Positions 3,813-52,985 are shown, counted from the first letter of the stretch. The stretch: 64,000 nucleotides of DNA from Escherichia coli (GCF_016903815.1 NZ_CP069973.1), one strand, 5' to 3'. Translations and numbers: made by a program. Notes: a model not told the origin generated them from the sequence alone.

Positions 3813-4232
3813 TCAAAGAAACCATTCCGGCTTAACACCAAATCGGGCTGAAAGTGCCTTAATGTGGGATATCGTCAGGGATCGTTGCCCAGACAAAATC
3901 TGACTGACCAGGGATTTAGAGCCGATTTCGTTCTTCAAATCCGCGTAGGTCAGATTATGTTGATCAATCAGCGTACGAAGTAACGCCACGCCAACCGGCA
4001 TTGCTGCAACGGCTTTGTCGAACTCGGCAAACTTTTCGTTGTTGTTTTCATATTCTGCAATGCGGCTCGCCAGAAAGTCGATAAGTGGATTGGTGTCATC
4101 TTCTTCAATCAAATATTCGACCAGTTCCAGTGCTTCACGATAATCATCTTCTGAGTCACTACCTCCCAGAAAGGGGACTGCATTGACCAGTTCTCTTGTT
4201 GCTTTAACAGCGCGTGCAGCATTAGCAGTCAT
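3813..4232 (-). CDS. HigA-like antitoxin, XRE-family HTH
   Basis: 139-aa ORF; C-terminal HTH (EIGSKSLVSQILSGQRSLTISHIKALSARFGV) resembling E. coli HigA; overlaps upstream toxin gene by 4 bp. Confidence 0.75.
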   Translation of the reverse strand: MTANAARAVKATRELVNAVPFLGGSDSEDDYREALELVEYLIEEDDTNPLIDFLASRIAEYENNNEKFAEFDKAVAAMPVGVALLRTLIDQHNLTYADLKNEIGSKSLVSQILSGQRSLTISHIKALSARFGVKPEWFL

Positions 4233-29351: not shown

Positions 29352-30779
29352 TTATTTACGTGCGGCCAGCATAGCGGTCAGTTTTTCAGCCCAGGCTTTG
29401 GTTTCCGGTAAATCCACCACCGGCTGGCTGTAGTGACCACGGTTGTCCGGGGCGACAGGCGTGGTGGCGTCGATAATCAGCTTGTCGGTGATACCGGCCG
29501 GGCTTGAGCCGGGGTCGAGTTCCAGCACGGACATATTCGGCAACTGCACCAAATCCCCTGCCGGGTTCACTTTCGAAGAGAGCGCCCACATCACCTGCGG
29601 CAGGTTGAACGGATCAACGTCTTCATCGACCATAATCACCATCTTCACGTAGCCCAGACCGTGTGGCGTGGTCATCGCACGCAGGCCCACCGCGCGGGCA
29701 AAGCCACCGTAGCGTTTTTTGGTGGAGATAATCGCCAGCAGGCCGTGGGTGTACATGGCGTTCACCGCCTGCACTTCCGGGAACTCGGCTTTCAGTTGCT
29801 GATACAGCGGCACGCAGGTGGCTGGCCCCATCAGGTAGTCGATTTCTGTCCACGGCATGCCGAGGTACAGCGATTCGAAAATCGGCCTGGTGCGGTAAGA
29901 GACTTTATCGATACGCACCACGGTCATGTTACGCCCGCCGGAGTAGTGCCCGGTAAACTCACCGAACGGCCCTTCGATTTCGCGTTTACGACTTTCGATG
30001 ACCCCTTCGAGGATCACTTCTGAACCCCACGGCACATCAAAACCAGTCAGCGGGGCGGTGGCGATCGGGTACGGGCTTTCACGCAGCGCGCCTGCCATTT
30101 CGTACTCGGACTGATCATATTTCAGCGGCGTGGCCCCCATCAGCGTGATGATCGGATCGTTACCCAAGGTGATGGCAATCGGCAGATCTTCACCGCGTTC
30201 TTCCGCTTTATGCAGATGCAGGGCGATATCGTGCATCGGCACCGGTTGCAGGCCGAGCTTACGTTTGCCCTTCACTTCCATACGATAGATACCGACGTTC
30301 TGCTTGCCGAAGTTATCCGGGTCGAGCGGATCGCGGGAAACCACGCACGCTTTGTCGAGATAGAAACCGCCATCGCCATCGTTTAAACGAAACAGCGGCA
30401 GGATATCGAACAGGTTGATCTCGTCGCCATCGACGGTGTTCTGCGCCCAGGCTGGATTGGCGCGGCGCTCCGGGGCAATCGGGAAGTTATCCCAGCGGCG
30501 GATAAACTCATCAATCTGCTTTTTGACCGGGGTGTTTGGCGGCAGGCCGAGGGAAATCGCGTGGTTCTGCCAGGAACCGATGGTATTCATCGCCACACGG
30601 GCATCGGTAAAGCCGCGAATATTGTCAAACCACAGCGCGGGCGCGCCGTCGCCGATACGCCCGGTGGCGTTAGCTGCTGCTGCCAGATCCGGTTCCGCGT
30701 TCACCTCTTCGCTGATTTTCAGTAACTGTCCGTGGTCATCAAGCGCCTGTAAAAAGCTGCGTAAATCATCAAATGCCAT
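29352..30779 (-). CDS. ecdC: UbiD-family (prFMN-dependent) aromatic acid decarboxylase subunit C
   Basis: 475 aa; UbiD-family similarity throughout. Confidence 0.8.
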   Translation of the reverse strand: MAFDDLRSFLQALDDHGQLLKISEEVNAEPDLAAAANATGRIGDGAPALWFDNIRGFTDARVAMNTIGSWQNHAISLGLPPNTPVKKQIDEFIRRWDNFPIAPERRANPAWAQNTVDGDEINLFDILPLFRLNDGDGGFYLDKACVVSRDPLDPDNFGKQNVGIYRMEVKGKRKLGLQPVPMHDIALHLHKAEERGEDLPIAITLGNDPIITLMGATPLKYDQSEYEMAGALRESPYPIATAPLTGFDVPWGSEVILEGVIESRKREIEGPFGEFTGHYSGGRNMTVVRIDKVSYRTRPIFESLYLGMPWTEIDYLMGPATCVPLYQQLKAEFPEVQAVNAMYTHGLLAIISTKKRYGGFARAVGLRAMTTPHGLGYVKMVIMVDEDVDPFNLPQVMWALSSKVNPAGDLVQLPNMSVLELDPGSSPAGITDKLIIDATTPVAPDNRGHYSQPVVDLPETKAWAEKLTAMLAARK

Positions 30780-31372
30780 TATTCATTCTCCTGAGAAAAA
30801 TTCCGGACCTGCGGCAATCCTTGCCAGCGCCTGGCGTGGGGATGTTCGAGGCCAAATTGATCCAGCACGCGGGCTACCACGTGGTGGACAATGTCATCTA
30901 CCGTTTCGGGATGGTTATAAAAGGCAGGCATCGGCGGCACCATCGCCACGCCCATGCGTGAAAGTGCGAGCATATTTTCGAGATGGATGGTGCTAAGCGG
31001 CATTTCACGCGGCACCAGCACTAGTTTGCGGCCTTCTTTGAGCACGACGTCCGCCGCGCGCCCTACCAGGCCATCGGCGTAACCGACACGGATACCGGCG
31101 AGCGTTTTCATACTGCACGGAATAACGATCATGCCGTCGGTACGAAAGGAACCTGAGGAGATGGTCGCCGCCTGATCCGCCGGGTTATGACTGAAGTCTG
31201 CGAGGGCAGCAACATCGCGAGCGCTGTAAGGCGTTTCCAGTTCAATGGTGGTTTTCGCCCACTTCGACATCACCAGATGAGTCTCGACATTCGGCATCTC
31301 CCGCAGCGCTTGCAGTAATGCCACCCCAAGAGGCGCACCGGTAGCCCCTGTCATCCCGACGATCAGTCTCAT
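30779..31372 (-). CDS. ecdB: UbiX-like flavin prenyltransferase (decarboxylase subunit B)
   Basis: 197 aa; UbiX/Pad1 motifs (GMTGATGA, IVIPCSMKTLAG). Confidence 0.8.
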   Translation of the reverse strand: MRLIVGMTGATGAPLGVALLQALREMPNVETHLVMSKWAKTTIELETPYSARDVAALADFSHNPADQAATISSGSFRTDGMIVIPCSMKTLAGIRVGYADGLVGRAADVVLKEGRKLVLVPREMPLSTIHLENMLALSRMGVAMVPPMPAFYNHPETVDDIVHHVVARVLDQFGLEHPHARRWQGLPQVRNFSQENE

Positions 31373-43126: not shown

Positions 43127-43155
43127 GGGAGTTCTACCGCAGGGGCGGGGAACTC
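43127..43155 (-). repeat. Decayed CRISPR repeat remnant (19/29 match) one unit beyond the array
   Basis: gggagttctaccgcaggggcggggaactc aligns to the repeat with 16/19 identity over the 3' 19 nt and lies exactly 61 bp before repeat 1. Confidence 0.45.
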
Positions 43156-43187
43156 CAAGTGATGTCCATCATCGCATCCAGTGCGTC

Positions 43188-43765
43188 CGGTTTATCCCCG
43201 CTGACGCGGGGAACACGTCAATAGGCGGCGTCCCGTAGCCGTCCCCTTCGGTTTATCCCCGCTGGCGCGGGGAACACGTTGAGGTCGATAAGTACGAACG
43301 GTTTCCCTGCGGTTTATCCCCGCTGGCGCGGGGAACACGATCGCCTGCTCCAGCGTCACTCCCTGCCCCTCGATTTATCCCCGCTGGCGCGGGGAACACT
43401 TCTGATACGTACTGAGGCCGGTTGTGATACGCGATTTATCCCCGCTGGCGCGGGGAACACTAACCCCCAATGAAGTTAATAAAGTCTATGGCCGATTTAT
43501 CCCCGCTGGCGCGGGGAACACATGAGATTAAAATACTCAGTACTCTTACTCGCCGATTTATCCCCGCTGGCGCGGGGAACACCAGCGTGGCGCGATAAAG
43601 CAATGTGTCTGGCTCGATTTATCCCCGCTGGCGCGGGGAACACCAGAGGCAACCGACGCGGATTCAGTAGGAAAGCGATTTATCCCCGCTGGCGCGGGGA
43701 ACACCGATAGACACTTTGCGGTCATTGTCTATTCGGCGATTTATCCCCGCTGGCGCGGGGAACAC
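43188..43765 (-). CRISPR. Type I-E CRISPR array: 10 repeats of 29 bp, 9 spacers of 32 bp
   Basis: Repeats start at 43188, 43249, 43310, 43371, 43432, 43493, 43554, 43615, 43676, 43737 (61-bp period); plus-strand consensus CGGTTTATCCCCGCTGGCGCGGGGAACAC; repeat 1 is degenerate (GCTGACGCG); repeats 4-10 carry CGATTT variant. Confidence 0.97.
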
Positions 43766-43861
43766 ACTAAGCATACATAACTGTTTTTAAACAAATTTAT
43801 TCCGCATCAACAATCTACCAACTAAATTAAAACATTTCCTTATTTTTAAAGAACAGATAAC
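43766..43861 (-). promoter_or_regulatory. AT-rich CRISPR leader between array and cas2
   Basis: About 95 bp AT-rich sequence adjacent to the non-degenerate repeat end. Confidence 0.75.
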
Positions 43862-45071
<1,210 letters not shown>

Positions 45072-45075
<4 letters not shown>

Positions 45076-45722
45076 GCCTCTGCTCCGGGTTTGATCAGCA
45101 TCAGACCACAGCCGAACGCGCGGCTTTTGCCATACCCCTGGCTCAGACGTTGCAGAAATAACCCAGGATCGGTGACCGTAAGCATCCCCGTATAATCCAC
45201 GCTACTGAACTGGATCAGTTGCCGGGAGTTTTCCCGCCGCAGTTGCTGTTGTCGGTAGGCATCGACCGAGGTATCCAGTAGTGTAAAACCGCTTCTTTCC
45301 CCCTGCGCTGCCAGCCAGTCCAGCGCCGCCTGTTGTTGATGCAACCAGACATCACTTCCTTCCACCTGCCCCCTCACCTGCCGTTTCGCCTCCATCAGCA
45401 AGTCGTGGCGTTTGCCCGCTTTACAAATTGTTGGATTCGCCCGCAGGTTGAAACAAAGGGATTGTCCGGTACGCAACTCTGGCGCAAATGGTCGGCATTC
45501 GATGGTGAAAATATCACTTTCCGCCGGGCGTTCCTGCGACAGGACAAAAAAGCGAAACGCCCCCTGGAGTTCTTCCCGACGATAAAGAAATTGCCTTTCT
45601 TTGCCGCCAGGAAAAAGATCCCACAGCCACTGATGCATTACATATTCACCGCGACCCACCAAATGCAGCAACTGCGCAGGCAAAAGCTGGCCGGTATGTA
45701 AGGTTATTCTTGAGAGGTACAT
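45072..45722 (-). CDS. cas6e: Cas6e (CasE) pre-crRNA endoribonuclease
   Basis: About 216 aa from MYLSRITL; ORF-track N-terminal extension overlaps cas5e and is rejected. Confidence 0.85.
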
Positions 45723-46450
45723 GGTTCCTCCTTGCTGAGCCACGGCCCCTGATTGATGGTGCGTTCCCCAAACAGCCACTGCTGACGATTTAAAGGAACA
45801 TCCCGGCGACGTAATATTTTGCTCGCGACCAGGCCGTCGTGTTCCCCTTCCCACCAGCATTCATCCTGAAGTTTCGGGAGTGAGACTTTCAGTTCGCGGA
45901 AACTATCCTGATACTGTTGGTATGCGTTACGTAAGACATCAGACGCGTTGCCTTCGAGCAGTAACGGCGCAAGTGGTAACGCCAGCGGATGACTTTTTCG
46001 CCCCAGATAAAGCGGAAAAACCGGATGACGTAAACCGTCCTGCAACTGTTCAAGCCTGTAAGACGCATCGGGGGTTGTTGCCACCGCCACCATCCACCAG
46101 GCATCGGTGTAGTAGTCGCGCCGGGAGATAATCGCGCTCAGAAGATCAGGGGCGCTCAACTCTTCGCGACGGCTGAAATAACGCGCTTTACGCACCTCTT
46201 TTGGCATCTGGACCGTGTGATAATCCCGTGCCCAGCGCGGGTTACGGCTGGCGCAAACCACCAGTGAATAGTGGCGGTTAAACGCGTTTAATCGTTCGGT
46301 ATCATCACGCCGAATCCCTACCCCGGCAGCCAGCAGCCCCAGCAATGCTGAGCGCGAAGGCAGTTCATGGGTATGACGCACTTCGCCGGGGGCATCGACG
46401 CCCCAGGATGCCATTGGCCCATGAAGCTGAAAAATCAAATATTGGCTCAT
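45704..46450 (-). CDS. cas5: Cas5e (CasD) Cascade subunit
   Basis: 248 aa; MSQYLIFQLHGPMASWG matches Cas5e N-terminal motif; GGGGCGG RBS. Confidence 0.85.
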   Translation of the reverse strand: MSQYLIFQLHGPMASWGVDAPGEVRHTHELPSRSALLGLLAAGVGIRRDDTERLNAFNRHYSLVVCASRNPRWARDYHTVQMPKEVRKARYFSRREELSAPDLLSAIISRRDYYTDAWWMVAVATTPDASYRLEQLQDGLRHPVFPLYLGRKSHPLALPLAPLLLEGNASDVLRNAYQQYQDSFRELKVSLPKLQDECWWEGEHDGLVASKILRRRDVPLNRQQWLFGERTINQGPWLSKEEPCTSQE

Positions 46451-46460
46451 TAGCCGCCCC

Positions 46461-47516
46461 TTACGCGCAGATAAAGTCCAGCACGTCCTTCATGCTTCCC
46501 TGTTTGTTCATCACGTCAAAGCTTACGCATTCGGTCTTCTGTTCATAGACCGTATTCATATTTTCGCGAAGCGTTGTAATACGCTGCACCGCCACATCTA
46601 ACTGCCGGGTGCCATTAATGGGTTCATAGAAAGCCGCCGCCAGAGAGCGTGGTTGTTCAGTGCCTTTTTCTGCCAGCGCCCAGGAGGCGTAGGCACGGCT
46701 GGCAAAGCTGTTCTGTTTGCCGGTTGGGGAGACTTTAAGTGCGGCTTCCGTAAAGGCGCGCAAGGTCTGATTAGCTAACGCTTCGTCACCGCCGAGGTTT
46801 TCGACCAGCAGATCTTTATCGATGCAGATATAGGTGTAGAACAGCGCAGAACCGAATCCGGTTTCACCAAGATGCCCGGCACCGGCATCTTCAGAAGCCT
46901 GGCGCAAATCATCAACGGCGGTGAAAAAATCATCTTCGACAATCGTTTCACTGACACCAAATGCATGCGCGACCTGGCAGGCGGCTTCAACATTAAATTC
47001 GGGTTTATTCGCCAGCATACGACCAAACATAGCGATATCTACCGCCATGCGATCTTTACGTAACAAAGCGAGATCTTCCTCTTTTGGCGCGCGCTTTTCT
47101 TCGGCCAGTTGATGGGCCAGCGCTTTTACGGCGTCAAATTCTGCCGGGCTGATATGGACTAGCTGTTCAGTTTCGGCGTTAGTGAGCGGATCTTTTGGTT
47201 TTTTGTCGTTTTTAGCTTTCCCAAGATAATCCGCAATTTTTGCCGCCCATTCGATGGCTTTTTTCTCTTCGATGCCTTTCTCAATCAGGATAGTTGCCGC
47301 CTCACGCGCAATACGCCCACTGCGAATACCAATATGGCCCGCCAGTGCCTGTTCAAAAAGTGCAGAAGTGCGCCACGCACGTTTCAGACTTTGTGAGGAA
47401 ACGCGCAGACGCGTTGCTCCACCCAGTACCACAGTTTTTGGCGCACCGGTGTCATCACGGTTAAGGTTGGCAGCAGGGTAAGCGGTTAACAAATGAAGCT
47501 GAATAAATGTCGTCAT
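46461..47516 (-). CDS. cas7: Cas7e (CasC) Cascade backbone subunit
   Basis: 351 aa; N-terminal IQLHLLTAYPAANLNRDD resembles K-12 CasC. Confidence 0.85.
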   Translation of the reverse strand: MTTFIQLHLLTAYPAANLNRDDTGAPKTVVLGGATRLRVSSQSLKRAWRTSALFEQALAGHIGIRSGRIAREAATILIEKGIEEKKAIEWAAKIADYLGKAKNDKKPKDPLTNAETEQLVHISPAEFDAVKALAHQLAEEKRAPKEEDLALLRKDRMAVDIAMFGRMLANKPEFNVEAACQVAHAFGVSETIVEDDFFTAVDDLRQASEDAGAGHLGETGFGSALFYTYICIDKDLLVENLGGDEALANQTLRAFTEAALKVSPTGKQNSFASRAYASWALAEKGTEQPRSLAAAFYEPINGTRQLDVAVQRITTLRENMNTVYEQKTECVSFDVMNKQGSMKDVLDFICA

Positions 47517-47530
47517 GAGATAGTCCTTTA

Positions 47531-48067
47531 TTAATTTTGTTCGTTATCGGCGTCGCCAGCCTGGTAATATTCCAGCGCCCAGCGGATACGGATAAATTCT
47601 GTTGGCCGCTGCTGGCGGCGGTGATGATTGAGCAGGTCGTCGCTCTCCTGGCACCAGCGGAAAATATCTTCTGCCAAAGAGATAAGATTGACGGAACCAT
47701 TTAATAATTTGACCGCGCGACGTAACTGACGCAGTAAATCATCAGGCGTTTTTACTGCCGACAGGCGAGTAAAACGCCCCTCCGACATTACCGCCGCCAG
47801 CTGCGCGGCAAAAGGCTGCCGTTCATCAATAGCTTTAACATTGGCGCTAACTGCGGCGACCAGCGCCAGTGCGGTAAAACGCCACTCTTGTGCTTCAATT
47901 TTCCACAAAGTGTGGGTCTGCATCAGCAGAGAACGAAACCCTTCTGACAGACAAACATCATTAACCGTTGTGCTACGCCGCAGACTGGCACGATTGCCGC
48001 GTTTTTCCTGCAACTCTTCGTGCCATTTACGCAGCGTGGCTTTGTGCTCCTCTTTTACAATACTCAT
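47531..48067 (-). CDS. cse2: Cse2 (CasB) Cascade small subunit
   Basis: 178-aa basic alpha-helical ORF between cse1 and cas7. Confidence 0.8.
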   Translation of the reverse strand: MSIVKEEHKATLRKWHEELQEKRGNRASLRRSTTVNDVCLSEGFRSLLMQTHTLWKIEAQEWRFTALALVAAVSANVKAIDERQPFAAQLAAVMSEGRFTRLSAVKTPDDLLRQLRRAVKLLNGSVNLISLAEDIFRWCQESDDLLNHHRRQQRPTEFIRIRWALEYYQAGDADNEQN

Positions 48068-49626
48068 TCAGCAGCCTCCTGCTTTTTCTCCCTGGCGGCT
48101 TTAGCATTTTGCTTCTCCGCCGATGTTGTAAAATATTTCTTGCGCGCGGTCATGACGCGTTTCAAATCAACGGGCTCATATGGATTGGTGAAGACACGCT
48201 CGTCAAAATCCTGACGCGCGAATAACCAAATTTCCTTTTGCCATTTGCTGAGTAATTCATCCGCATCCTGACCTTCTTCAATGTGGCGCACTAACCTCAG
48301 GAAGCGATGCTGAGTTTTGTTCCAGAAGTCGATATCCACAAAACTGAAATCACCCCGTGCACCTTTTGGATCGGAGAACCACGCTTCTTTCAATGCACTC
48401 CGTAACAGACTCAGAATCCGTGAAGCCGTTTGCGCAGCCAGCCGCAGCTTCGGTATCTGGCCTTCTTTTTTATCGAGCAGCAGCGGAAAATGGTGTTCGT
48501 ACCAACAGCGCGCTTTCATGTTGTCAAAATCATAACCAAATCCCCACAGGCCCACTTTTGCCTGCTTGAGACTGCTGGCATTAAAGAGTTTCACCACCAG
48601 CGCGGGAAGTTCCGTATTGTTTTCTGATTTACCCGTTTCGATAAGGCCTAACCAGTCGCGCCAGATTAAACCGCCTGGTTGTGGTTTGACCGAGTAAAAC
48701 TCGCCGCCCTCTTTAAGGGGTACACGGTAAGGCGTTAAGGGATGCTGCCACATGGCATAATTCGCGCCGTAATTTTTGGTCGTCATCAGGCTCAGGAGCG
48801 CGTCGTTCTGCTCGCCGCAAATATCGCAGTTGCCGACTGTCGTGGTATTAAAATCAATACGAATACGCCGCGGCATTCCCCAGTACGCCTGGAGTTTATT
48901 AACCTGATCATCGGTTACCACCGCACCGGCCAGTTCGCTGGTACGCGTCGGGCCAAGCCAGGGGAAAACCAGATCGTCAAATTTTTTGGGTAGCGGTAAG
49001 TCGGCTTCGTCCTGCGGCATCACATTGAGCCACAGTTTGCGCCACAAGGGCGTTTGTTGATTGCCCTGATATTCCTGTAATTCAATCAGAGTGGTCATCG
49101 GCCCACCGCCGCGTAAACCGGTGCGGTAGCCTTTACCACCTGACGGCGCATTTAACTGTAGGGAGAACAGAGCTAACGCAGAACAATGTGGGCACAGGTA
49201 TTCCGTTACACCACGCTTGATAAAGTGGTCTTTATTAAACTTCGTTGTTTGAGCGCCGGGAATCTCAGGCAGTAGCGAAGCGACCTGAACTTTATCTCCT
49301 GTGAGCGCCTCGAAATCCTGCATAAATGAAGGGGAATCTGGCCCAAACTGGAAAGCGTGTTCTAAGGACAGCAATGCTTCCCGTAGCTTTTCAGATTCCA
49401 GTCCGTCTTCCCAGATATCATCCCAACGACGATGATCTTTTGGCGCAAAGCTGGTTTGTAGTAGCCCCAGCAAAAACTGCCATGCCGCTCCCTGGAGATC
49501 TGCCCGTGGCGCAGCAATATCGACAACATTTTCATCCGCCAGATCGACAGGCGCCAGTTTGCCTGTCGTTCCGTCTTTATAACGAACGGGCAACCACGGG
49601 GTTGTCAGAAGTGAAAACGAGTTCAT
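48064..49626 (-). CDS. cse1: Cse1 (CasA) Cascade large subunit
   Basis: About 520 aa from MNSFSLLTTPWLPV; start chosen 6 nt after GAGG (ORF track begins 49695). Confidence 0.8.
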   Translation of the reverse strand: MNSFSLLTTPWLPVRYKDGTTGKLAPVDLADENVVDIAAPRADLQGAAWQFLLGLLQTSFAPKDHRRWDDIWEDGLESEKLREALLSLEHAFQFGPDSPSFMQDFEALTGDKVQVASLLPEIPGAQTTKFNKDHFIKRGVTEYLCPHCSALALFSLQLNAPSGGKGYRTGLRGGGPMTTLIELQEYQGNQQTPLWRKLWLNVMPQDEADLPLPKKFDDLVFPWLGPTRTSELAGAVVTDDQVNKLQAYWGMPRRIRIDFNTTTVGNCDICGEQNDALLSLMTTKNYGANYAMWQHPLTPYRVPLKEGGEFYSVKPQPGGLIWRDWLGLIETGKSENNTELPALVVKLFNASSLKQAKVGLWGFGYDFDNMKARCWYEHHFPLLLDKKEGQIPKLRLAAQTASRILSLLRSALKEAWFSDPKGARGDFSFVDIDFWNKTQHRFLRLVRHIEEGQDADELLSKWQKEIWLFARQDFDERVFTNPYEPVDLKRVMTARKKYFTTSAEKQNAKAAREKKQEAAE

Positions 49627-49723
49627 ACGCATCCTCTCGTAAAAAAGACCATCCCAGGTCGGTTGTCCATCATTCCATCCTTTTCGGTGTATCAACTATT
49701 CAGAGAGCCCTGTCGCAGGCATC

Positions 49724-52423
49724 TCAACCAACCTTGCCAGTCAATCCTTCCATAGCCGAATACCCGCAACTTTCGTCATCGGTAACTAAAATCACGTTTG
49801 CCATCTCCGGATCTTTCCGCTGTTCAATGCACCACTGCCTGAACGCTTCCCCTTCCAGTAAAGAAAACTCATCCCGATGTTTTTTCCACCAGCTTCGACG
49901 CACTCTGACAACGCTCATTTCCCATGCGTGAGCACCGTTGGCATAAGGCTTCACCACACTGGCAATACAGGTAGCCAGCCACAGGGAAACAGACTCCTCC
50001 GCCAGACGTGTCGACAGCTTTTCCGGAAGGTAATCGTTGATATTGGCGGCATAGCCAGGCCTGAAGTTCAGCACAAACTTTTTAGCCATTGCGCGATCGC
50101 AGTAATATTTGCCCACTTGCTCCTGCTCGCTGCGGGCAAATCCTTCCGGCATTACCACGTCCTCACCGTAGACTGATTCAATAAGAAGGCGGGCTGCGTG
50201 TGGCATTTGAATAGCGCCTTGCTCACGCAGTACACGCTGCGTCAGCCAGATTCGTCCATGATCGGGATAGACATATGCACTGTTACGCATGGCACTGCCG
50301 AACCATTCGTCACCTGGAGCGTCGTCCCAGACGGGGGCCAGAATCAGCAATTCAGGAGGGGAACGCTCGTCTTTTCCGTCACGCTTTAACTGACCATTAA
50401 TATCGCGGATATGCCGCTGTAATCGCCCCGCTCGCTGGATCAGCAAATCAACAGGGGCCAGGTCGGAAATCATTTCGTCCATATCGCAATCAACGCTCGA
50501 CTCTAAGACCTGAGTACAAATGAGGACTTTTCCGGCACGCTGTGAGCTATCTTCTTTACCGAAGCGTGCCAGCGTTTCCGTTTCAATTCGCTGGCGATCG
50601 CTAAAAGCAAAGCGGCTATGAAACAGAGAAAGGCTGGAAGCAGGAATGACGCCGCGGGCAAGCAACTGACGATAAACCTTAATAGCGTCATCGACAGAAT
50701 TCCGGATCCAGGCGATGCATTTCCCCTGACTTACTGCCGATTCGATACGCGCAATACATTCTTGTTCGCTATGAAGCCAACCCACGCTCACGCTACGCTC
50801 AACGTCTTTGCGCGTCGCTACCCGGTGTGAATGCACATCGGATTTCGTAACGTGCGTCAGCCAGGGGTAATCATCCTTTTCCAGGAACGGAGCTTCTTGC
50901 TGGCCCTCTGTACCACGCGCAAAGGCAGCAACGAGTTTGTCGCACTGCTGTTGAGATAACGTGGCAGAAAGCAAAATGACGCTGTTTCCGCCACGCGCCT
51001 GCCGCTCGATCAGCCCTTCAAGAATGCATGACATGTAAGCGTCACAGGCATGGATCTCATCAGCCAGCAGGATTTTGTTACTCAGTCCCAGAAGCCGCAG
51101 ATTATTATGTTTGAACGGCATCACAGCCATCATCGCCTGATCCAGCGTGCCGACGCCAATTTCAGCCAGTAGCGCCTTCTTGTTACTGTCGGCAAACCAG
51201 GCCGCACATCCCTGACTGAACGTTTGTTCATCCGGTTCTTCTGACCCGACTAAATCACCGGACCAGAGTGATTCATTAAAGCGGTCCATTAATGTTCGGG
51301 CACTGTGTGCCAGCACCAGGCTGGGGCGGGACTCTGGCGAATAGAAAGCAAGCCAGGTTTTGACCAGTCGATCGTACATGGCATTGGCCGTTGCCATTGT
51401 TGGCAGGCCAAAAAACAAACCCTGCGCTTTACCCGCAGCCATCAACCTGTGCGCCAGGATAAGCGCCGCTTCCGTTTTACCTGCGCCAGTCACATCTTCC
51501 AGAATAAATAACTGTGGCCCTGGCTGGCTGATATCCAGATCCAGCACCTTTTGCTGTAACGGTGTCGGATTCTCAATAAAAGGAAACAGCGTATTAATTC
51601 CGGTGAAAGGCGCGACTTTTGCTTTTAGAGGAAAGACGGTTAAGGCGTTTTGAGCCTGAACTAAAGTTTTCTGCCAGTAACCTTTAATATCCATTGGGTG
51701 TGCGACGCGTGGAAAAAATCGCGTTGACGAACCCGTCCAGTCTGCGAGCACGACGGTTGCAGAGATATACCAGGAAAGGTGTTTTATAAGTTCAATGCCC
51801 TCATCATCATCCCAGAATGCGGGGATCTCTATGAGCGGAAACAGTGGTTTGATTTCAAGAAGAAAATCTCGCGCGGCAGCTTTGTCTTCAGGCAGAAAAT
51901 TATCCAGTTCATCAATACGGTCAGGCGGGCGACCATGATGCCCGGTAGTTATGGGCATCCACATCTCCATCACCCGTTTAAGTTTGCGCGGAGAGAGTGA
52001 AGATGAAGGAAGCAATTCTTCGTATTCACTTAAATAATGATGCCACAGCCAGTAGCCCAGCGTTGAATGAGAGATCTTTTCGTAATTCTTTCTTGCGCCT
52101 TCCGGAACCTTGAGTTGTGGGTGCAGGTAAAGTTGCTGAAAAGAGCGGGCAAATTTTCCAGTATCGTGCCAGCACAATAGCCAGGCGAAAAATTGTGCTG
52201 CCTGCTCCGTATCAGCGAAACCTAGTTGACGAAAATAGTCAGTCAGCCCGAAGCAATTGCTTTTAACCATTAAATAGCCCATCGCGGCTACATCCAGCGA
52301 ATGCCAGCAAAGAAGGTGATAGTCGTCGCCCCCGTCTTTCTCGCCGCGTCGGGTTTTTCCCCAGAAATCAAAAAAAGTCACAATATTTTTATCCTTCAGT
52401 AAACTTAAAGGATATTTACGCAT
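49724..52423 (-). CDS. cas3: Cas3 HD nuclease / SF2 helicase
   Basis: 899 aa; N-terminal HD domain, Walker A (DVTGAGKTEAA), DEAH-like box (LADEIHACD). Confidence 0.9.
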   Translation of the reverse strand: MRKYPLSLLKDKNIVTFFDFWGKTRRGEKDGGDDYHLLCWHSLDVAAMGYLMVKSNCFGLTDYFRQLGFADTEQAAQFFAWLLCWHDTGKFARSFQQLYLHPQLKVPEGARKNYEKISHSTLGYWLWHHYLSEYEELLPSSSLSPRKLKRVMEMWMPITTGHHGRPPDRIDELDNFLPEDKAAARDFLLEIKPLFPLIEIPAFWDDDEGIELIKHLSWYISATVVLADWTGSSTRFFPRVAHPMDIKGYWQKTLVQAQNALTVFPLKAKVAPFTGINTLFPFIENPTPLQQKVLDLDISQPGPQLFILEDVTGAGKTEAALILAHRLMAAGKAQGLFFGLPTMATANAMYDRLVKTWLAFYSPESRPSLVLAHSARTLMDRFNESLWSGDLVGSEEPDEQTFSQGCAAWFADSNKKALLAEIGVGTLDQAMMAVMPFKHNNLRLLGLSNKILLADEIHACDAYMSCILEGLIERQARGGNSVILLSATLSQQQCDKLVAAFARGTEGQQEAPFLEKDDYPWLTHVTKSDVHSHRVATRKDVERSVSVGWLHSEQECIARIESAVSQGKCIAWIRNSVDDAIKVYRQLLARGVIPASSLSLFHSRFAFSDRQRIETETLARFGKEDSSQRAGKVLICTQVLESSVDCDMDEMISDLAPVDLLIQRAGRLQRHIRDINGQLKRDGKDERSPPELLILAPVWDDAPGDEWFGSAMRNSAYVYPDHGRIWLTQRVLREQGAIQMPHAARLLIESVYGEDVVMPEGFARSEQEQVGKYYCDRAMAKKFVLNFRPGYAANINDYLPEKLSTRLAEESVSLWLATCIASVVKPYANGAHAWEMSVVRVRRSWWKKHRDEFSLLEGEAFRQWCIEQRKDPEMANVILVTDDESCGYSAMEGLTGKVG

Positions 52424-52560
52424 ATATTAAAAATTATCTGTGATATATATCGTTCAATAAAATATTTACATTATGAATAATCAAATAATTTTCATCCGTA
52501 ATATATATGAATAATAAACATAGGCATAATATTCACATAAACAATATAAATTAAAAAAGG
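52424..52560. promoter_or_regulatory. Strongly AT-rich cas3 upstream region (candidate promoter / H-NS target)
   Basis: About 135 bp of A/T-rich sequence with repeated ATATAT and TAAATA tracts immediately 5' of cas3. Confidence 0.5.
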
Positions 52561-52590
52561 GTGCAGGAGACCAAACCATCACAATTCAAT

Positions 52591-52613
52591 ACGCGGGGTT
52601 TTACCCCCGCGTG
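52591..52613 (-). terminator. Hairpin immediately 3' of hok-like ORF (cgcgggg-loop-ccccgcg)
   Basis: Inverted repeat seen directly; on minus strand followed by TATTGAATTG. Confidence 0.4.
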
Positions 52614-52617
52614 GTGG

Positions 52618-52770
52618 CTACTTCTTCGATTCGTAAGCGAGAACTGCCTTAAACTCCATACCACGTTCTCTGATACTCAACTCACACAACGAGTCGCCTA
52701 CCATCAGCGTGAATCCCAGTACTGTACAACACAGTACGATGATTGCCACAAGGGCATATTTTGTCAGCAT
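52618..52770 (-). CDS. Hok/Gef-family type I toxin (small membrane peptide)
   Basis: Hand-translated 50-aa [53 protein letters not shown]; GGGAGG RBS; Hok signature (TM helix, LCE, AYES); below ORF-track length cutoff. Confidence 0.75.
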
Positions 52771-52985
52771 GTCTTGCCTCCCTGCAAAGAAGAGACTAAC
52801 ATTCGAATTGCTTAGGTTCGAACGCTGGCCTCAGGTTGATAGAAATATCGCCTGGGGCTTTTGTCCATCTGGAACCTCGCGAATGCTTAACGCCAGACAG
52901 CCTCAAGCACCCAACGCCATTCTATACCTGATAATTCTTCCAGCGGCGTTCACGTTTAAAATCAGGAATGCTGCTCGCAAAATAA

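What the first reader, a model, noticed from the sequence alone, without database searches (positions are those of the whole stretch)
43127..52560. Complete type I-E CRISPR-Cas locus with apparently intact effector and adaptation genes
All eight type I-E genes are present as full-length ORFs with tight or overlapping junctions: cas3, cse1, cse2, cas7e, cas5e, cas6e, cas1, cas2, followed by leader and array. By my recollection Cas1 and Cas2 are close to the K-12 proteins while Cas6e, Cse1 and Cas3 are more divergent, consistent with the second E. coli type I-E cas variant and recombination within the locus. The cas3-cse1 intergenic region is only about 100 bp, and the cas3 upstream region is extremely AT-rich, suggesting nucleoid-protein silencing as in K-12.
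Basis: partly seen in the sequence, partly recalled or inferred. Interest (0 to 1): 0.5.

Follow-up and report, generated by a model that had tools for sequence, protein, structure and literature searches.

The report

Summary
On the minus strand of 43127-52423 lie eight uninterrupted type I-E genes (cas3, cse1, cse2, cas7e, cas5e, cas6e, cas1e, cas2e), a 96-nt AT-rich leader and an array of 10 good repeats, a degenerate terminal repeat and 10 spacers of 32 nt. Cas1 and Cas2 are 85% and 84% identical to the K-12 proteins; the other six are 21-35% identical or not alignable.

This is the published cas-E1 (cas-EO, "var. B-8552") variant in its ancestral "arrangement A": iap, array, leader, cas genes, hok/sok, cysH. 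It is present in 2419 of 5426 complete E. coli genomes, against 1114 for the K-12 variant.

The idea of recombination inside the locus is not supported. Synonymous sites of cas1 and cas2 are as saturated against K-12 as those of the other cas genes (pS 0.72-0.83, against 0.09-0.12 in flanking genes).

Silencing "as in K-12" is untested, and the layout differs. The only AT-rich control region lies upstream of cas3, not between cas3 and cse1.

Three spacers match a prophage, a lambda-like phage and a plasmid, all with an ATG PAM. That is the known preference of this variant.

Verdict: already known, low interest.

The parts
43127..43765 (-). CRISPR2.1 array. It has 10 repeats of 29 nt (type A, GTGTTCCCCGCGCCAGCGGGGATAAAYCG), a degenerate terminal repeat at 43155..43127 and 10 spacers of 32 nt. 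The seven leader-proximal repeats carry C27T (…ATAAATCG).
   Evidence: 10 matches, 0 expected by chance. The repeat RNA folds into the same 7-bp hairpin as the K-12 repeat. The oldest spacer and the terminal repeats are shared with K-12.
43766..43861 (-). Leader (L1 / leader-A), 96 nt, GC 25%. It is homologous to the K-12 leader but diverged from it.
   Evidence: alignment to the K-12 leader. Leader variants travel with cas variants (PMC3903273; PMC3737337).
43862..44155 (-). cas2e, 97 aa
   Evidence: TIGR01873, 130 bits, profile positions 1-87 of 87. 84% aa identity to K-12.
44152..45075 (-). cas1e, 307 aa, GTG start
   Evidence: TIGR03638, 381 bits. 85% aa identity to K-12. Active-site residues E141, H208, D218 and D221 are kept.
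45072..45722 (-). cas6e, 216 aa, the pre-crRNA endoribonuclease
   Evidence: TIGR01907, 285 bits, profile positions 1-207 of 208. The catalytic histidine aligns with K-12 H20 (H30 here).
45704..46450 (-). cas5e, 248 aa
   Evidence: TIGR01868, 159 bits. 35% identity to K-12 CasD.
46461..47516 (-). cas7e, 351 aa, the Cascade backbone subunit
   Evidence: TIGR01869, 448 bits, profile positions 1-325 of 325.
47531..48067 (-). cse2 (cas11e), 178 aa
   Evidence: TIGR02548, 103 bits. No significant BLASTP match to K-12 CasB. Weak match to T. thermophilus Cse2, 2zca.
48064..49626 (-). cse1 (cas8e), 520 aa, the large subunit
   Evidence: TIGR02547, 609 bits, profile positions 1-503 of 504. The start follows the RefSeq annotation and has a GAGAGGA ribosome-binding site. 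The closest solved structure is K-12 CasA, only E = 1.8e-15 over the N-terminal half.
49627..49723 (-). cas3-cse1 spacer, 97 nt, GC 49.5%. No consensus promoter, no terminator and no stable fold.
   Evidence: fold z-score +1.0.
49724..52423 (-). cas3, 899 aa, HD nuclease fused to an SF2 helicase
   Evidence: TIGR01596 (HD) at residues 38-233 and TIGR01587 (helicase core) at 306-676. The HD motif (H86, D87, K90), Walker A (K316), DEAH (D455) and motif III (S486, T488) are kept. The closest solved Cas3 chains are 4q2c and 4qqw.
52424..52617 (-). AT-rich region upstream of cas3, 194 nt, GC 28%. It is the presumed control region. It also holds the hokX 3' hairpin, which is an IS186/IS421 insertion hot-spot.
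   Evidence: The IS421 site is occupied in AR_0114 and empty here.
52618..52912 (-). hokX/sokX type I toxin-antitoxin locus. The Hok ORF is 52770..52618 (50 aa) and the hok/sok RNA element is 52912..52755. It is a neighbour that marks the E1 arrangement, not a CRISPR component.
   Evidence: ORF. (Rfam RF01794, 111.7 bits, full length). (annotated as a Hok/Gef family protein). Hok/sok is reported in all strains except those carrying E2 (PMC3903273).

Best explanation
[quoted passage not shown] The literature calls it cas-E1, cas-EO (after O157:H7) or var. B-8552. It sits between iap and cysH in the ancestral 'arrangement A'.

How it works, inferred from the family and not tested here:
- The array is transcribed from the leader.
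- Cas6e cuts each repeat at the base of its 7-bp hairpin, giving 61-nt crRNAs.
- Cse1, Cse2, Cas7, Cas5 and Cas6e assemble around the crRNA into Cascade.
- Cascade finds DNA that matches the spacer next to an AWG PAM and forms an R-loop.
- Cas3 is recruited to nick and unwind the target.
- Cas1-Cas2 add new 32-nt spacers at the leader-proximal repeat.

What the sequence shows directly:
- All parts are present, full length and with catalytic residues intact.
- Past acquisition left a signature: three spacers have protospacers flanked by ATG, and a repeat mutation (C27T) has spread through the seven newest repeats.

Inferred regulation: expression probably starts in the AT-rich region upstream of cas3 and reads through the 97-nt spacer into cse1 and on to cas2. 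H-NS-type silencing of that region and of the leader is plausible.
For: Family membership:
- All eight proteins pass the NCBIfam I-E models over their full length.
- Catalytic residues are conserved.
- The repeat hairpin is intact.

Variant identity:
- Gene lengths and identities to K-12 match Table 1 of PMC12736100.
- The cas region is 95-96% identical to O157:H7 strains (H9, H152).
- The repeat is type A (GTGTTCC…), with its matching leader and hok/sok next to cas3, as described for E1.
- Mean GC is 51.7%, against 44.8% for K-12. The published values are 53.5% and 45.6%.

Prevalence: 2419 of 5426 complete E. coli genomes carry this cas region. 1114 carry the K-12 type.

Past activity:
- Spacer 4 matches a lambdoid prophage gene 32/32.
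- Spacer 6 matches a lambda-like portal gene 29/32, with mismatches spaced by 9 nt.
- Spacer 8 matches a type IV coupling-protein gene on a 31-kb plasmid 32/32.
- All three protospacers are preceded by ATG. This is the CAT/CWT motif shown experimentally and in silico for cas-EO (PMC3737337).

Whole-module origin:
- DNA similarity to K-12 drops inside the array and returns at 52768.
- cas1 and cas2 synonymous sites are saturated.
Against: - No expression or activity data exist for this sequence.
- The consensus scan finds no sigma-70 promoter upstream of cas3, in the cas3-cse1 spacer or in the leader.
- cas3 lacks an obvious Shine-Dalgarno sequence.
- The array and leader are 100% identical in strain 7/2 (H102), and the 10-kb locus is 100% identical in AR_0114 apart from its IS421 insertion (H1). 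That argues against very recent spacer turnover.
- Co-transcription of cas3 with cse1 is inferred only from the lack of a terminator and of an AT-rich region between them.
Confidence: 0.93

Rival explanations
1. The locus is a mosaic made by recombination inside it. A K-12-like cas1-cas2-leader segment was joined to a foreign cas3-Cascade segment, which is why only Cas1 and Cas2 resemble K-12.
For: There is a sharp step in protein identity at the cas6e/cas1 boundary, from 27-31% to 85%. DNA similarity to K-12 is detectable only from the array through cas1, ending at window 45063. Recombination within E1 Cascade genes among B1 strains is documented (PMC3903273).
Against: cas1 and cas2 are 74-77% identical to K-12 at the DNA level. 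Their pS values are 0.83 and 0.72, indistinguishable from the other cas genes (0.75-0.83) and about 7-fold above the flanking core genes (0.09-0.12). dN is 0.13-0.14 against 0.74-0.95, so the difference lies in constraint. In the published trees E1 and E2 remain separate clades on cas1-cas2-cas3 alone, and the leader co-varies with the variant.
Confidence: 0.06
2. The locus is intact on paper but functionally dead or permanently silent. On this view it is a relic kept by drift, inactivated by missense or regulatory decay rather than by stops.
For: E. coli arrays change slowly, and the K-12 system is silent in the laboratory (literature cited). This array is identical in strain 7/2 and in AR_0114 (H102, H1). 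No consensus promoter was found. cas3 has a weak ribosome-binding context.
Against: About 8.5 kb of uninterrupted reading frames survive across eight genes, with full-length profile matches and all checked catalytic residues. cas1 and cas2 show strong purifying selection, with dN much lower than dS. The same full-length gene set is found in 2419 genomes. Cas1-Cas2 from an E1 strain (O157:H7) are active in acquisition assays (PMC3737337).
Confidence: 0.15
3. [quoted passage not shown]
For: C. rodentium has the same layout, with control exerted upstream of cas3. Fnr sites are predicted upstream of cas3 in 13 of 32 Enterobacteriaceae (PMC12669028).
Against: No 14-mer in the 300 nt upstream of cas3 matches TTGATnnnnATCAA better than 7 of 10. 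Four such matches were seen against 2.5 expected in shuffles, and none is centred near -69.5. E. coli is not among the species listed with a site in that paper's source data.
Confidence: 0.04

Closest known systems
E. coli type I-E1 CRISPR-Cas, also called cas-E1, cas-EO or 'var. B-8552' (for example O157:H7 and E24377A); arrangement A of Almendros et al. 2014, mBio (PMC3903273)
   Same: Everything tested:
- gene order and gene lengths;
- 90-100% DNA identity across 2419 genomes;
- type-A repeat and its matching leader;
- hok/sok between cas3 and cysH;
- position between iap and cysH;
- ATG/AWG PAM signature.

   Different: Only strain-level details differ. These are the particular 10 spacers, a C27T change in the seven newest repeats, and an empty IS186/IS421 site that is occupied in many relatives.
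E. coli K-12 type I-E system (cas-E2 / cas-EK), the experimental model
   Same: - Same subtype, gene order and chromosomal site.
- Same repeat hairpin and 61-nt period.
- Homologous leader.
- Cas1 and Cas2 are 84-85% identical.
- The oldest spacer and terminal repeats are shared.

   Different: - Cas3, Cse1, Cse2, Cas7, Cas5 and Cas6e are 21-35% identical or unalignable, with no DNA homology from cas6e to cas3.
- GC is 51.7% here against 44.8% in K-12.
- K-12 has a 414-bp AT-rich cas3-casA spacer holding Pcas, where this locus has 97 bp at 49.5% GC.
- K-12 has lost the hokX coding region.
- The repeat starts GAG in K-12 and GTG here.
- The acquisition motif is CTT only in K-12, against CWT for the O157:H7-type variant (PMC3737337).
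Citrobacter rodentium type I-E system, activated by Fnr in anoxia (Campbell et al. 2025, PMC12669028)
   Same: It is an enterobacterial type I-E locus, and its control region lies upstream of cas3.
   Different: No Fnr consensus site is present upstream of cas3 here. Protein similarity to the C. rodentium system was not measured.

Membership tests
Type I-E CRISPR-Cas | Signature genes cse1 (cas8e) and cse2 (cas11e) together with cas7e, cas5e and cas6e | tested here: met
   TIGR02547 609 bits, TIGR02548 103 bits, TIGR01869 448 bits, TIGR01868 159 bits and TIGR01907 285 bits. All are above their cut-offs and cover the full profile.
Type I-E CRISPR-Cas | A single Cas3 that fuses an HD nuclease to an SF2 helicase, with catalytic motifs | tested here: met
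   The HD domain spans residues 38-233 and the helicase core 306-676. H86, D87, K90, K316, D455, S486 and T488 align to the K-12 catalytic residues.
Type I-E CRISPR-Cas | Cas1e-Cas2e adaptation module with the Cas1 active site | tested here: met
   TIGR03638 381 bits and TIGR01873 130 bits. E141, H208, D218 and D221 are conserved.
Type I-E CRISPR-Cas | Adjacent array of 29-nt hairpin repeats with 32-nt spacers, next to an AT-rich leader | tested here: met
   10 repeats at a 61-nt period, with 0 expected by chance. The hairpin folds at -15.1 kcal/mol. The leader is 96 nt at 25% GC.
Type I-E CRISPR-Cas | crRNA-guided interference and spacer acquisition in vivo | not testable with these tools
   Only indirect traces are available: three spacers with ATG-flanked protospacers and the spread of the C27T repeat change.
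E. coli I-E1 (cas-EO) variant | cas genes near-identical to O157:H7-type strains and distinct from K-12 | tested here: met
   95.0-95.6% DNA identity to O157:H7 strains over the locus (H9, H152). No megablast match to K-12 cas genes (H21). Gene lengths equal those of var. B-8552.
E. coli I-E1 (cas-EO) variant | Type-A repeat and leader, and hok/sok between cas3 and cysH | tested here: met
   The repeat starts GTGTTCC, against GAGTTCC in K-12. hokX ORF and Rfam sok match. These features are described for E1 in PMC3737337 and PMC3903273.
E. coli I-E1 (cas-EO) variant | Protospacer motif CWT (AWG), with frequent CAT (ATG) | tested here: met
   Protospacers of spacers 4, 6 and 8 are all preceded by ATG. 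The sample is only three spacers.
E. coli K-12 I-E2 variant | High identity to K-12 Cas3 and Cascade proteins, and a long AT-rich cas3-casA spacer holding Pcas | tested here: not met
   Identity is 21-35%, or absent, for six proteins. The spacer is 97 bp at 49.5% GC, against 414 bp at 29.5% GC in K-12.
Fnr-activated enterobacterial I-E loci | Fnr consensus site centred about 65-70 nt upstream of the cas3 start | tested here: not met
   The best matches are 7 of 10, at -81.5, -54.5, -27.5 and -23.5, which is no more than chance. E. coli is absent from the published list.
H-NS-silenced cas promoters (K-12 model) | H-NS binding and LeuO relief at the cas and CRISPR promoters | not testable with these tools
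   Only composition can be measured: 28% GC upstream of cas3 and 25% GC in the leader. One 8-of-10 match to the H-NS motif TCGATAAATT lies upstream of cas3.

The most novel reading that the evidence does not exclude
The majority E. coli variant may be wired differently from the K-12 model. On this reading a single control region upstream of cas3, next to hokX, drives one cas3-to-cas2 transcript, and there is no separate Cascade promoter. Its regulators could then differ from the K-12 H-NS/LeuO scheme, and the system might be active under conditions where K-12 is silent. IS186/IS421 insertions into the hokX hairpin, seen in many strains, would then cut the whole system off from its natural control.
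Probability: 0.4. Interest if true: 0.3.

Novelty: already known. Interest (0 to 1): 0.1.

Why it matters
It adds little. The two E. coli type I-E variants, their leader and repeat types, their PAM preferences, the hok/sok neighbour and the role of IS elements were described between 2010 and 2014, and again in 2025.

One point is worth keeping in mind. Nearly all mechanistic and structural knowledge comes from the minority K-12 variant. No solved structure is closer to this Cse1 than K-12 CasA at E = 1.8e-15. I also found no study of how this variant is regulated.

Tried and rejected
- **Fnr control as in C. rodentium.** No site better than 7 of 10 was found, and E. coli is not in the published list.
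- **A terminator or structured element in the cas3-cse1 spacer.** The fold is no better than shuffled sequence (z = +1.0), and no terminator was called there.
- **A consensus sigma-70 promoter upstream of cas3, in the spacer or in the leader.** None was called. The scan is crude, so this does not show absence.
- **A second array in the window.** None was found.
- **A Klebsiella plasmid match to spacer 4 that seemed to extend into repeat-like flanks** (CG upstream, GAGTTCCC downstream). I considered a captured CRISPR unit or an off-target integration. The flank is simply the ribosome-binding site and start of an LprI lipoprotein gene, with no flanking duplication. An E. coli prophage copy gives a clean 32/32 match with an ATG PAM.
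- **Global nucleotide identities for the six divergent genes (about 67-72%).** These are alignment artefacts and were not used. BLASTN finds no homology there.
- **Touchon et al. 2011 (PMC3133152).** It could not be read.
- **Not run.** Structure prediction, large protein-database searches and metagenome scans were judged unnecessary for a locus that is 100% identical to annotated RefSeq genomes.
Full report
**Observation**

Eight ORFs without internal stops run from cas3 (52423..49724) to cas2 (44155..43862). Each matches the corresponding NCBIfam type I-E model above its curated cut-off and over essentially the whole profile. For Cas3, both the HD and the helicase-core domain models match.

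The junctions are tight. There is a 97-nt gap after cas3, followed by overlaps of 4, 19, 4 and 4 nt and gaps of 14 and 10 nt.

Downstream of cas2 lies a 96-nt leader at 25% GC. Then comes an array of ten 29-nt repeats at a 61-nt period, a degenerate terminal repeat ending at 43127, and ten 32-nt spacers. None would be expected by chance. The repeat RNA forms the same 7-bp hairpin as the K-12 repeat.

Residues that align to the known K-12 catalytic positions are conserved:
- Cas3: H86, D87, K90, K316, D455, S486, T488
- Cas1: E141, H208, D218, D221
- Cas6e: H30

**Source and context**

The window is E. coli chromosome, running ascG…hyc…hyp…mutS…rpoS…cysDNC-iap-CRISPR-cas-hokX-cysHIJ. The locus is 100% identical to strains AR_0114 and 7/2, where RefSeq annotates the same eight genes with the same boundaries.

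**Comparison with K-12 (MG1655 region fetched)**

Cas1 is 85% and Cas2 84% identical to the K-12 proteins. The others are far more distant: Cas3 29-32%, Cse1 21-24%, Cas7 30-32%, Cas5 35% and Cas6e 27-31%. Cse2 is not alignable by BLASTP.

**Identity with a described variant**

Table 1 of PMC12736100 gives the same gene lengths for "var. B-8552" (2700, 1563, 537, 1056, 747, 651, 924 and 294 bp) and the same identity pattern against K-12.

Almendros et al. 2014 (PMC3903273) named the two variants E1 (majority) and E2 (K-12 and a minority of strains):
- They tied each variant to its own leader.
- They noted that hok/sok is present in all strains except those with E2.

Díez-Villaseñor et al. 2013 (PMC3737337) called the variants cas-EO and cas-EK. 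They linked cas-EO to type-A repeats and leaders, and showed a CWT acquisition motif for cas-EO against CTT for K-12.

The window has all of these marks:
- GTGTTCC-type repeats.
- An intact hokX ORF and a full-length Rfam sok/hok element next to cas3.
- 95-96% DNA identity to O157:H7 loci.
- cas GC of 51.7%, against 44.8% in K-12.

In 5426 complete E. coli genomes, 2419 carry this cas region at 80% coverage or more, and 1114 carry the K-12 one.

**Recombination within the locus**

BLASTN against K-12 shows four zones:
- Core-level identity up to the trailer end of the array. The oldest spacer and the terminal repeats are shared with K-12, with two and one mismatches.
- About 70% identity across the rest of the array, the leader, cas2 and cas1.
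- No homology from cas6e to the hokX coding region.
- A return to 97.7% at 52768.

Nei-Gojobori counts show that synonymous sites of cas1 (pS 0.83) and cas2 (0.72) are as saturated as those of the other cas genes (0.75-0.83). cysN, cysD, iap and cysH have pS 0.09-0.12. The difference between cas1/cas2 and the rest lies in dN, which is 0.13-0.14 against 0.74-0.95.

So Cas1 and Cas2 look close because they are constrained, not because they share a more recent ancestor with K-12. This agrees with the published whole-module exchange. It gives no support to a cas6e/cas1 recombination joint, although saturation prevents any dating.

**Regulation**

The layout, however, is not that of K-12. In K-12 the AT-rich region (414 bp, 29.5% GC) lies between cas3 and casA, and the cas3 upstream region is 41-44% GC.

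Here the cas3-cse1 spacer is 49.5% GC. It has no called promoter or terminator and no stable fold. I infer one control region upstream of cas3 and read-through into cse1. This is an inference only. H-NS silencing is plausible from composition but untested. I found no study of regulation in this variant.

The Fnr mechanism shown for C. rodentium (PMC12669028) is not supported here. There is no site better than 7 of 10, and E. coli is not in that paper's list.

**Traces of past activity**

Three spacers have protospacers, each preceded by ATG:
- Spacer 4 matches 32/32 the start of an LprI-family gene in a lambdoid prophage of an O25:H4 strain. It also matches 31/32 on 113-kb Klebsiella plasmids that carry tail-fibre genes.
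- Spacer 6 matches 29/32 the portal gene of lambda-like phages, with mismatches 9 nt apart.
- Spacer 8 matches 32/32 a type IV coupling-protein gene on a 31-kb plasmid.

ATG is the CAT form of the cas-EO motif.

The seven leader-proximal repeats share a C27T change that the three older repeats lack. This is what repeat duplication at the leader end would produce after a mutation in the first repeat. If so, about six acquisitions followed the mutation. That is an inference, and recombination between arrays could give the same pattern.

**Verdict**

This is a real, intact and well-described system. Novelty: already known.

Noticed in passing
window 43368-43532; L003 6001-6165 (NZ_CP107157.1 16029-16193): A 96-kb E. 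coli plasmid, pR11-698-2, carries 165 bp that are 100% identical to part of this array (two spacers with parts of three repeats). The fragment lies at the end of an ISEcp1-blaCTX-M-15-WbuC(orf477) unit that splits a DUF1281 gene. It looks as if an ISEcp1 transposition unit once sat in a chromosomal array with these spacers and carried a piece of it onto the plasmid.
   Followed up: partly
window 52618-52912: An intact hokX/sokX type I toxin-antitoxin locus lies directly upstream of cas3: a 50-aa Hok ORF and a full-length Rfam sok/hok element at 111.7 bits. Similarity to K-12 resumes at 52768, right at the hokX start codon. So K-12 keeps only the sokX side and has lost the toxin coding region.
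   Followed up: partly
window about 52595-52615; L002 11000-11045 and 12340-12365: The hokX 3' hairpin (CGCGGGGGTAAAACCCCGCG) is an empty IS186/IS421 target site in this window. In the otherwise identical strain AR_0114 an IS421 copy sits in it, flanked by a GGGGTAAAACCC duplication, between cas3 and its upstream region. Annotation under the match shows IS421 in several other listed genomes as well.
   Followed up: yes
window 43371-43765: The seven leader-proximal repeats end …ATAAATCG instead of …ATAAACCG. crRNAs from the six newest spacers would therefore carry an altered 5' handle (AUAAAUCG). Its frequency in other strains and any effect on Cascade were not examined.
   Followed up: no
window 43127-43216; L001 about 4140-4230: The oldest spacer, the last full repeat and the degenerate terminal repeat are shared with K-12, with two mismatches in the spacer and one in the repeat, although the cas genes differ completely. 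So the left edge of the module exchange lies inside the array.
   Followed up: yes
L004 2990-3050 (CP037443.1): The spacer-4 protospacer on 113-kb Klebsiella plasmids is flanked by CG and GAGTTCCC, which mimic the repeat ends. This is coincidence: the flank is the ribosome-binding site and start of a lipoprotein gene. The flank there reads ACG, whereas the E. coli prophage copy has ATG.
   Followed up: yes
window 30779-31372: The hydroxyarylic acid decarboxylase subunit B gene, in the variable segment next to rpoS, is an intact 197-codon ORF here. AR_0114 annotates it as a pseudogene with an internal stop. So the window does not come from AR_0114 itself.
   Followed up: partly
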